DNA from: Ginglymostoma cirratum
Lineage: Eukaryota
Length of the DNA stretch: 64,000 nucleotides
Assembly: GCA_024137785.1 (NCBI GenBank)
Contig: JAHRHZ010000003.1
Location: forward strand, 8,725,854 to 8,789,853
Reading direction: 5' to 3'
Notes under the pieces: generated by a model
Database searches by the model: none
What the model was told of the DNA's origin: nothing
What the model saw: the letters and a program-made list of their open reading frames with translations, nothing else
Position numbers and translations under genes: made by a program
Shown here: positions 29,001-32,000 of the stretch, piece by piece
Layout of the letters: the number at the start of each line of letters is the position of its first letter
Numbering within the stretch: the stretch's first letter is position 1

Positions 29001-32000
29001 TATTTGCTGACAGACACATTCAGGTAATAGATCCTTGCATGGTGTCACACAGCATTGTTTCCTTGGCTGTGCTATATATGTAGTAGATTCTGTGTAAATG
29101 GTCTAAGATGGGAAAATCTTTGTGCCTTGTCTGTTTCAACACCTATGTCTTGCAAAAAAAATAGTGACCCTTGGTTGTGGTGGACTCATTGTAGCTCAGT
29201 TGCAGACATCCTGCTGTCTGACCTTTGCCATTAGACTAGTCTCTGTTCGATGCACTGGGCTACCCAGGCGAGCAGTGCATGTACAGCATGAATGCAGAAG
29301 GCAAGAACTTGCATGGACAATGTTGTTCATCAACCCTGGACATCTCAAAGCACTTCACAGGCATTTGAAATTCAACTACTCTGGTGGTAAACGCACATAT
29401 GGCCCTTGAATGGTCGCAAGATGTTCCTCTAAGAGCCAAAAGGCAGCTGAACAGCACGATGCCTTTAGGGGGGAACCACTTGAATCGACACTGGACAAAC
29501 CTGTCCCCCTAACTCTACATGTTTTCTTTATGCACAAAGTTGACAGCAACTTATGTAAATCTAATCTAGTTGTTTGTGAACTGTCCTGAGTCCGTACTGC
29601 TCCATTGTGAGTAACCGTGTCAGCCCACGTTTTGAATAGTGTTGCTGGATGGGTTCTTTGTGAACTTAACCCTGAGAGTAAAAGAACAAAAATGCAAACT
29701 AAATCAGTCAGATTGCAGACAAAGTGTGGGATGGAGAGAGAAACAAATAGCAATCTTTCTCTGAGGTAGTAAGAACTGCCGATGCTGGGGTCAGGGATAA
29801 CATAGTATGGAGCTGGAAGAACACAGCAGGCCAGGCAGCATCAGAGGAGCAGGAAAGCTGACGTTTTGGGTCGGGATCCTTCTTCAGAAATGGGCTGAAG
29901 GAGGTTTCTGAAGAAGGGTCCTGCCCTGAAACGTCAAATTTCCTGCTCCTGTGATGCTGCCTGACCTGCTATGTTCCTCCAGCTCGACACTGTGTTCTTG
30001 CAGTCTTCCTCTGTACACTGTACATCAGTCTTTACTGTCTTTATATTTTGCACGATGCAGTCTCATGTCTCCTATTGTCCAGAATAAGAATGGAAACAAT
30101 GTTCCTGCTGCAGTACGAAATTTTAGCCCTTAATGTTGAATTGAACATATAATCTGAGTTGAAACTAATGTACTTTGCATTCAGGTGCTGGTCTCCACAG
30201 CAACTCTGGCCTGGGGTGTGAATTTACCTGCGCACACTGTTATTATCAAAGGGACACAGGTATACAGCCCAGAGAAGGGACGCTGGACTGAGTTGGGTGC
30301 ACTGGACGTACTTCAGGTGATGTGGTTTGAATCATTTTGAACAATGTGATGTTTTAGAAAATAGCTTCAGAAGTTCCATATACATGATCCAGAGTCAATG
30401 CATGAGCATGCCACAACTTGCACTACTCAAAATTTTTACTTCTCCTGATAGCTAGCTTCTGATCTGTTCATGCTTATAATAAAATACAAATTTTTCTTAC
30501 AGATGTTAGGCCGTGCAGGGCGACCACAGTATGATACGAAAGGTGAGGGGATCCTTATCACATCACATGGTGAGCTGCAGTATTACCTATCCCTTCTCAA
30601 CCAGCAGCTGCCCATTGAAAGCCAGATGATCACAAGACTCCCAGACATGCTCAATGCTGAGATTGTCCTTGGAAATGTCCAGACGGCAAAGGTGAGAAAT
30701 GAGTATTTCATTCTTGGTCCTACCTAAGCTTATCCTGGCTAAGACATGTCAAGTACCGGCCACTCACTGGGGGTTGACCAGGGCTCCCAGAGGTGATTGT
30801 TAAGTACTATCAAAATCTGAACTCAGCAACTTTTGATCTTGCAGGATGCTATTAACTGGCTGGGGTACACGTACCTGTACATTCGCATGTTGCGAACCCC
30901 AACTCTCTATGGGATCTCGCATGATGAGCTAAAGAGTGACCCCCTATTAGAGCAACGCAGACTGGACCTTATCCACACCGCTGCCATCATCCTAGACAAA
31001 AATAACCTTGTGAAATATGACAAAAAGGGTGGCAACTTCCAGGTAAGGATTACATTCTCTCATGTCCAACAGTGGTGGTCTGTCTGAAATTTTGAAATAG
31101 TACTCAGTACAAAACTGATGTTAACAGTAACTTCAGATAGCTGATGATATTTGACCAGCATAAGTCTGCAAATATATTACAGGCTGATGGATTTAAATTG
31201 CTGTTTATTGTAGAGAGAAGCTGATGAACATGTAAATATTACGTTGTTCAATACTGACAATCGTTCTTCATCAGATGCTTTGTTCCTTCATTGTTATAAT
31301 TTGAAACCATTTTGTGTGTAGGTGACTGATCTAGGCCGGATTGCAAGTCACTATTACATTACACATGAAAGTATGGCAACGTACAATCAGCTTTTGAAAC
31401 CCACCCTGAGTGAGATTGAGCTCTTTAGAGTATTTTCACTGTCCTCCGAGTTCAAGAACATCAGCGTCAGAGAGGTGAGTATGAATGTTCTTGAAGCATT
31501 ATCGGATTACTGTGCCCAGAATTCTGTATTCTGACTGTAAACAAAGCATTGAACACCACTTACTGGACTCCCACTGAGGTTGCAGCCCTTTAGTTGAAGG
31601 ATGACATCCACTCATAACAGTTTCTCTCTTAGATCTTTGTGACTGAGAAAGCTGATTTGAAAACTGTATACCTTGGCAGATATGGCGCAGGACATCAATC
31701 TTGTGGGCTCTCAATAAAGGTCCGCTGCCCTGCTGTAAACGCATATCTAATCGCATAAGTTGATATGTTTATGCCACCATGTTGCAGCAGGAGCAGGAGA
31801 CACCAAAATGTACTGAAAACGTATCTGTATGAATTGACTTTCAGAACTGGTGAAATTGGAGGCGTCAGCCACCTTAGTTTGGAAGCCCAAATGGTTTGGC
31901 TTGATCCATCTTTAGAAGGTTTATTCAGAGCATCTGCAGCAGCAGATTGCCCAGCAGTTAATTTTATATGTCGTTATCTGACTCACTGATGTTTCACCTC

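What the first reader, a model, noticed from the sequence alone, without database searches (positions are those of the whole stretch)
29771..29995. Back-to-back pLTR pair with a near-textbook GUC hammerhead in SNRNP200 intron 18
Seen: plus strand AGGAGGUUU-CUGAAGA-AGGGU/CCU/GCCCU-GAAAC-GUC-AAAUUUCCU, with a 9-pair stem I and GUC triplet. The mirror copy on the minus strand (29850-29890) has GAAAC changed to AAAAC and a broken stem II. Established: inverted pLTR arrangements are typical of Penelope insertions. Inference: this is the best candidate for an active ribozyme in the window. The ~90-bp inverted arms could instead form a long hairpin that sequesters it or attracts ADAR, giving two alternative folds.
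Basis: partly seen in the sequence, partly recalled or inferred. Interest (0 to 1): 0.72.

Follow-up and report, generated by a model that had tools for sequence, protein, structure and literature searches.

The report
Decayed Penelope mirror insertion in intron
This is an old, common footprint of a Penelope-type jumping gene in an intron: two ends pasted head to head, carrying a stripped-down ribozyme motif that is predicted to stay zipped inside a long hairpin and likely does not cut the host RNA.

Summary
The sequence is as described: two inverted arms (92 nt, 85%) in SNRNP200 intron 18, a plus-strand hammerhead core with a 9-pair helix I, and a broken minus-strand copy. It is one ~236-bp insertion of two Penelope-like element (PLE) ends, with a 14-bp target duplication and a one-sided 32-nt tail. 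The motif is not textbook. Helix III has no loop, so it is a minimal hammerhead, a class reported inactive as a monomer. It has lost the family G10.1-C11.1 pair. Its long helix I is an accident of the junction plus one private base (1 of 180 arms). The hammerhead fold is predicted to cost 38 kcal/mol against the hairpin, so there is one fold, not two. The genome holds 44,565 exact family-type cores. A related organism has the same insertion, diverged at the intron's rate. The scan noted this kind of element before (58 notes, at least 10 genomes). Side result: in sampled palindromes 80 of 88 have one tailed and one untailed arm, and arms differ at a lineage site more than mutation explains (18 of 61). 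That hints at two primed cDNAs, not pure fold-back.

The parts
29750..29763 (+). Target-site duplication, left copy (14 bp)
   Evidence: 12 of 14 identical to 30000-30013; 54 of 61 measurable paralogous units have such a duplication, 4% in mismatched controls
29764..29795 (-). PLE 'tail', about 32 nt, present on this arm only
   Evidence: arm-end distribution; known feature (PMC8557442, PMC11167929)
29764..29895 (-). Long arm: pLTR end with tail, element sense on the minus strand
   Evidence: same end lies ~300 nt behind an RT-GIY-YIG ORF in longer copies
29860..29887 (-). Dead minimal hammerhead: A for G12 at 29867 (a CpG site), helix II mismatch at 29877, helix I of 2 pairs
29896..29904 (.). 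Locus-specific 9-nt junction insert; supplies 6 of the 9 bases of the 5' strand of helix I
   Evidence: junction differs at every locus; resembles the element's own adjacent bases (inferred templated insert)
29905..29999 (+). Short arm: pLTR end without tail, element sense on the plus strand
29899..29944 (+). Minimal type I hammerhead motif: core 29908-29935, no helix III loop, U at 11.1 (29927), private A at 29938; predicted scissile bond after 29935
30000..30013 (+). Target-site duplication, right copy
28913..29023 (+). SNRNP200 coding exon 18 (host context)
30185..30316 (+). SNRNP200 coding exon 19 (host context)

Best explanation
This is one old insertion of two head-to-head ends of a Penelope-like retrotransposon, flanked by a 14-bp target duplication; in the SNRNP200 pre-mRNA it is predicted to fold into an 84-pair hairpin that buries the hammerhead motif, so it likely does not cut and is likely neutral. 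Shown: the anatomy, family membership, copy number, decay pattern and presence in a related organism. Inferred origin: the element's GIY-YIG endonuclease made a staggered cut, reverse transcription started at the two fixed sites ~32 nt apart that define the arm ends, both copies stopped just upstream of the hammerhead and were joined by repair with a short templated insert. Inferred behaviour now: RNA polymerase II makes the antisense arm first, the core pairs to it as it emerges, and the intron is spliced out whole. The 9-pair helix I is chance: a purine-rich junction met a pyrimidine tract after one private substitution.
For: 44,565 exact matches to a family-type core in the own genome, 0 for the reversed control; this copy does not fit that pattern. 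41 arm hits in 260,629 readable random bases. Subfamily arms lie ~300 nt behind an RT-GIY-YIG ORF, e.g. L068 at 67% over 365 aa; Pfam GIY-YIG E 0.016 and RVT_1 E 1e-5, both under the curated cut-offs. Hammerhead fold costs 38.3 kcal/mol; mean helix I pair probability 2e-22. Helix I is 2 pairs in 145 of 180 junction arms and 2-4 pairs in 26 of 26 native-context arms; our junction gives 2 contiguous pairs with 90 of 98 other 3' strands. Organism B contigs enter the element from both flanks and one spans the junction with 4 differences in 87 nt, against about 38 in 763 in the flanking intron (Fisher p = 1.0). A single minimal hammerhead showed no cleavage, dimers little (PMC4209133); the anole PLE hammerhead needed the element's protein (PMC11167929).
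Against: The catalytic core letters of the plus copy are all intact (true of 47 of 180 arms) and its helix I is the longest sampled; cut out alone, helices I and II form well (pair probabilities 0.87 and 0.97). The divergence test has little power (87 nt, positions of the differences not shown), so constraint on a few bases is not excluded. No raw RNA reads or cleavage data were available. Folding energies are predictions.
Confidence: 0.9

Rival explanations
1. The plus copy is an active ribozyme that cuts the SNRNP200 pre-mRNA, as a dimer through the ACGU palindrome (with another transcript or the intron-14 motif) or with protein help.
For: Intact core and GUC; 9-pair helix I; a second sense motif with the same ACGU at 26633; PLE hammerheads can cleave with protein (PMC11167929).
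Against: 38 kcal/mol sequestration and capture in all five growing-chain snapshots; ACGU duplex only about -3 kcal/mol and absent from the predicted homodimer; G10.1-C11.1 lost; no slowed divergence in organism B.
Confidence: 0.04
2. The hairpin, not the ribozyme, has been kept as a regulatory double-stranded RNA: an ADAR substrate that tunes splicing or retention of intron 18.
For: 84 predicted pairs with runs of 12, 12, 12 and 20 and four A-C mismatches. Such stems are usual ADAR targets (recalled), so incidental editing is plausible.
Against: Arms are 15% apart, and CpG sites decay independently in the two arms across paralogs, with no sign of maintained pairing; 838 close look-alikes of the junction exist; the unit is ~170 nt from the 3' splice site and ~730 nt from the 5' one.
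Confidence: 0.05
3. Same identity, different origin: the mirror arose by self-priming (fold-back) on one template, as proposed for Adineta PLEs, so the arms were identical at insertion.
For: Arms share subfamily letters (p down to 1e-9) and rare variants (45 against 7 by permutation; 12 against 4); the lineage site is associated between arms (odds ratio 7, p = 0.015). Published hypothesis in PMC3846280.
Against: The A/G lineage site differs between arms in 8 of 24 and 10 of 37 units against 8-10% background (p = 0.003 for the second set), and in 0 of 33 units of the sister subfamily; the short arm ends at a fixed site too.
Confidence: 0.45

Closest known systems
Complex insertions of endonuclease-bearing Penelope-like elements: inverted 5'-truncated pLTR, one-sided 30-40 bp tail, target duplication (PMC8557442 Fig. 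2 legend and text; PMC3846280 Pen2a_Av)
   Same: Head-to-head pLTRs, tail on one arm only, short target duplication, parent with RT followed by GIY-YIG.
   Different: Miniature: both arms stop a few bases upstream of the hammerhead, no ORF is left; 14-bp duplication against 8-10 bp in the rotifer examples.
Minimal type I hammerheads of metazoan PLEs (Cervera and de la Pena 2014, PMC4209133)
   Same: Core boxes, no loop 3, palindromic ACGU, location in the pLTR, thousands of dispersed single or opposed copies; the family form has the extra base after position 9 and G10.1-C11.1.
   Different: This copy has lost G10.1-C11.1 and re-pairs helix II in a shifted register; its helix I is made from junction sequence and is longer than the native 2-4 pairs.
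Poseidon element of the green anole, PAc (Frangieh et al. 2024, PMC11167929)
   Same: Two reverse-transcription start sites bounding the tail match the two arm ends; copies run through the uncut hammerhead.
   Different: The parent here has a Cys-rich RT-EN linker, described for Neptune/Nematis and not Poseidon; clade not tested by a tree.
Non-LTR retrozymes (PMC7229834; bioRxiv 10.64898/2026.07.22.740005)
   Same: Short, non-coding, type I hammerhead, PLE-derived.
   Different: Retrozymes are head-to-tail tandems that allow dimeric cleavage; this unit is head-to-head, so the two motifs are on opposite strands and pair with each other.

Membership tests
EN+ Penelope-like element insertion | End sequence lies downstream of an RT plus C-terminal GIY-YIG ORF in longer copies | tested here: met
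   Pfam scores are below curated cut-offs, order and catalytic motifs fit
EN+ Penelope-like element insertion | Inverted pLTR with a 30-40 bp tail at one end | tested here: met
   this unit, and 80 of 88 sampled units
EN+ Penelope-like element insertion | Target-site duplication | tested here: met
   14 bp, 12 identical; 54 of 61 units
EN+ Penelope-like element insertion | Clade placement (Neptune, Poseidon) by RT phylogeny | not tested
   only the Cys-rich linker was seen
Minimal type I hammerhead of PLEs | Core boxes CUGANGA, GAAA, NUH intact | tested here: met
   plus copy; not met for the minus copy
Minimal type I hammerhead of PLEs | No or tiny loop 3 with palindromic 15.2-16.2 | tested here: met
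   ACGU at 29931-29934
Minimal type I hammerhead of PLEs | G10.1-C11.1 pair with one unpaired base before helix II | tested here: not met
   U at 29927; present in the family form
Canonical monomer-active hammerhead | Closed helix III | tested here: not met
   zero-nucleotide loop; no hammerhead family among Rfam matches at gathering or up to E 10
Canonical monomer-active hammerhead | Fold accessible in the natural transcript | tested here: not met
   predicted 38 kcal/mol penalty
Canonical monomer-active hammerhead | Self-cleavage | not testable with these tools
   needs an assay or raw RNA ends
Non-LTR retrozyme | Head-to-tail tandem units each with a hammerhead | tested here: not met
   single inverted pair; no direct repeat of the unit within 27000-33000

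The most novel reading that the evidence does not exclude
These miniature palindromes record the PLE insertion step: both strands of a staggered cut each prime a cDNA, one from the distal (tail) start site and one from the proximal site, often on two different RNA copies or two pLTRs of one tandem transcript, and the two cDNAs are joined head to head just upstream of the uncut hammerhead. This would replace the self-priming model for inverted pLTRs and give a genome-scale test of a dimeric PLE transposase.
Probability: 0.4. Interest if true: 0.5.

Novelty: new member of a known kind. Interest (0 to 1): 0.17.

Why it matters
As a locus it matters little: one decayed copy among tens of thousands of better-preserved motifs, with no sign of function in an essential splicing gene. 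It is a useful caution that a long helix I beside an intact core can arise by chance at a junction. The family has more value than the copy: hundreds of short palindromes with fixed arm ends and target duplications let one test how Penelope-like elements make their inverted ends, a step that the papers read here call unresolved.

Tried and rejected
Rfam: nothing at gathering in the window; up to E 10 only hairpin-type matches far below their cut-offs, read as generic stem matches. RNA evidence: no RNA holder listed on record; guessed-RNA runs are contigs only, so editing and RNA ends could not be examined; no contig bridging the palindrome was listed for organism A, which says nothing either way. 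The second laying did not reveal where organism B's differences fall. An apparent asymmetry (a helix II variant in many long arms and almost no short arms among the first 30 loci) was rejected as a likely seed bias of the DNA search; it is 6 of 50 units, in either arm, in the pattern-picked set. Those first 30 loci were left out of all concordance counts, and L181-L190 were dropped as duplicates of the first pattern set. MITE or DNA transposon: rejected, because the ends are unequal, the duplication is 10-17 bp and longer copies run into an RT ORF. Look-up of earlier notes by sequence found nothing. Paper searches for the effect of the 10.1-11.1 pair and for shark PLEs gave listings only.

Full report
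Observation. The arms are 29799-29890 and 29905-29996, 92 nt, 85% complementary. The host is SNRNP200, and the intron is 29024-30184, the eighteenth by my count of coding exons; two contig sets join its exons across exactly 1161 nt. The genome is a 4.36-Gb vertebrate assembly; 'shark' is my recall and the label in earlier notes, not tested here.

What the unit is. It is a dispersed repeat. The DNA search gave 6,817 candidates and 40 scored places at 83-89% beside the self match. Forty random 10-kb stretches held 41 arm hits in 260,629 readable bases. A strict 28-letter family core occurs 44,565 times, with 0 for the reversed control. In longer copies the same end lies 300-400 nt behind an ORF with a reverse transcriptase motif followed by a GIY-YIG domain; copies of this unit's own subfamily do too, for example L068, L057 and the copy at window 62951-63592. 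The unit runs 29764-29999 and is flanked by a 14-bp duplication with 2 mismatches. The left arm carries a 32-nt tail; the right arm does not. Inverted truncated pLTR, one-sided 30-40 bp tail and target duplication are the described layout of endonuclease-bearing PLE insertions (PMC8557442, passages; PMC3846280, passages).

The hammerhead. GAAAC runs straight into GUC, so helix III cannot close within one molecule. This is the minimal type I motif of metazoan PLEs. Cervera and de la Pena report no cleavage for a single such motif and low cleavage for dimers and trimers, and list G10.1-C11.1 and an unpaired base before helix II as conserved (PMC4209133; I read parts 1-2 of 4, no supplements). 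The anole element's hammerhead cut only with the element's protein, and uncut RNA was the main insertion substrate (PMC11167929; parts 1-2 of 4). Our plus copy has U at 11.1 and the minus copy has A for G12; both changes hit the same CpG, on opposite strands, and that site is among the most decayed in paralogs. That G12 is needed for catalysis is recalled knowledge.

Helix I. Six of the nine 5' bases lie in a 9-nt junction insert that differs at every locus. Of 180 arms from 90 pattern-picked palindromes (this one included), 145 have 2 contiguous pairs and only this one has 9. In the native pLTR context 26 of 26 arms have 2-4 pairs. The four bases after the GUC match none of 98 other arms, and our junction gives 2 contiguous pairs with 90 of those 98; with a family strand a stem with one mismatch could still form.

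Folding. Alone, the 46-nt piece forms helices I and II. In the 225-nt unit the hammerhead arrangement is 38.3 kcal/mol above the ensemble, and each of five growing-chain snapshots already pairs the core to the antisense arm. The hairpin has 84 pairs. The predicted homodimer of the core does not use the ACGU helix III. The motif at 26633 in intron 14, from another PLE family, pays only 6.5 kcal/mol, so this is not the best candidate in the window.

Constraint. Contigs of a related organism enter the element from both flanks, and one spans the junction with 4 differences in 87 nt, 2 of them within 29884-29934. The flanking intron has about 38 in 763 (33 listed rows plus 5 inferred from the contig's total). 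The rates do not differ. The test is weak and the positions are unknown.

How it arose. Among pattern-picked units, 42 of 48 readable and 38 of 40 have one tailed and one untailed arm; 2 have two tails (4 of the 40 hold some unread bases). Target duplications appear in 28 of 31 and 26 of 30 units with both ends measurable, against 4% of controls. The two arm ends match the two reverse-transcription starts that bound the tail in the anole element, whose protein nicks and extends both strands (PMC11167929). Arms of one unit share subfamily letters and rare variants more than chance, as one source lineage would give. But at one non-CpG A/G site that segregates in this subfamily they differ in 8 of 24 and 10 of 37 units, against 8-10% background, and in 0 of 33 units of the sister subfamily. 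The arms are still associated at that site (odds ratio 7 in the second set). I read this as a mixture, with a part of the units built from two template copies; later gene conversion or an unstable site are not excluded. The published proposal is self-priming (PMC3846280). Three searches listed no paper on a two-template test; the library lacks most subscription journals.

Known relatives and novelty. The layout and the motif class are both described. The bioRxiv paper on retrozymes (part 1 of 5 and passages; supplements not seen) and PMC7229834 (passages) concern head-to-tail tandems, which this is not. The scan's own notes list 58 findings with these words in at least 10 genomes; they agree with my reading but are not evidence.

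Verdict. A real, ordinary, decayed PLE insertion. Active ribozyme in vivo: about 4%. Interest 0.17, mostly for the family-level hint on mechanism.

Noticed in passing
window 26555-26735 (+), SNRNP200 intron 14; core 26633-26662: Second sense-strand minimal hammerhead from another PLE family (GUU triplet, 6-pair helix II). It sits in a head-to-head unit whose inner antisense part is missing, so the predicted cost of the hammerhead fold is only 6.5 kcal/mol. It also lacks a helix III loop.
   Followed up: partly
window 9334-9361 (+): Family-type minimal hammerhead core with G10.1-C11.1 intact, upstream of SNRNP200; not evaluated further.
   Followed up: no
window 62951-63592 (-): Longer copy of the finding's own subfamily, with tail and a decayed GIY-YIG coding remnant.
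   Followed up: partly
L131-L180, L191-L230: Both arms of these palindromes stop within a few bases upstream of the hammerhead core, and the junctions often hold short repeats of neighbouring element sequence. The patterns selected for this, but 838 such junctions exist for one motif alone.
   Followed up: partly
L036, L038, L081, L096, L111, L122: The same head-to-head layout occurs with several hundred to 1,200 bases between the hammerheads; in random stretches 9 head-to-head neighbours lay within 1.3 kb against 2 tail-to-tail and 0 direct.
   Followed up: partly
window 43186-43821 (+): A 211-aa open frame that looks like the C-terminal part of a LINE reverse transcriptase (recalled resemblance) inside a later SNRNP200 intron.
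   Followed up: no
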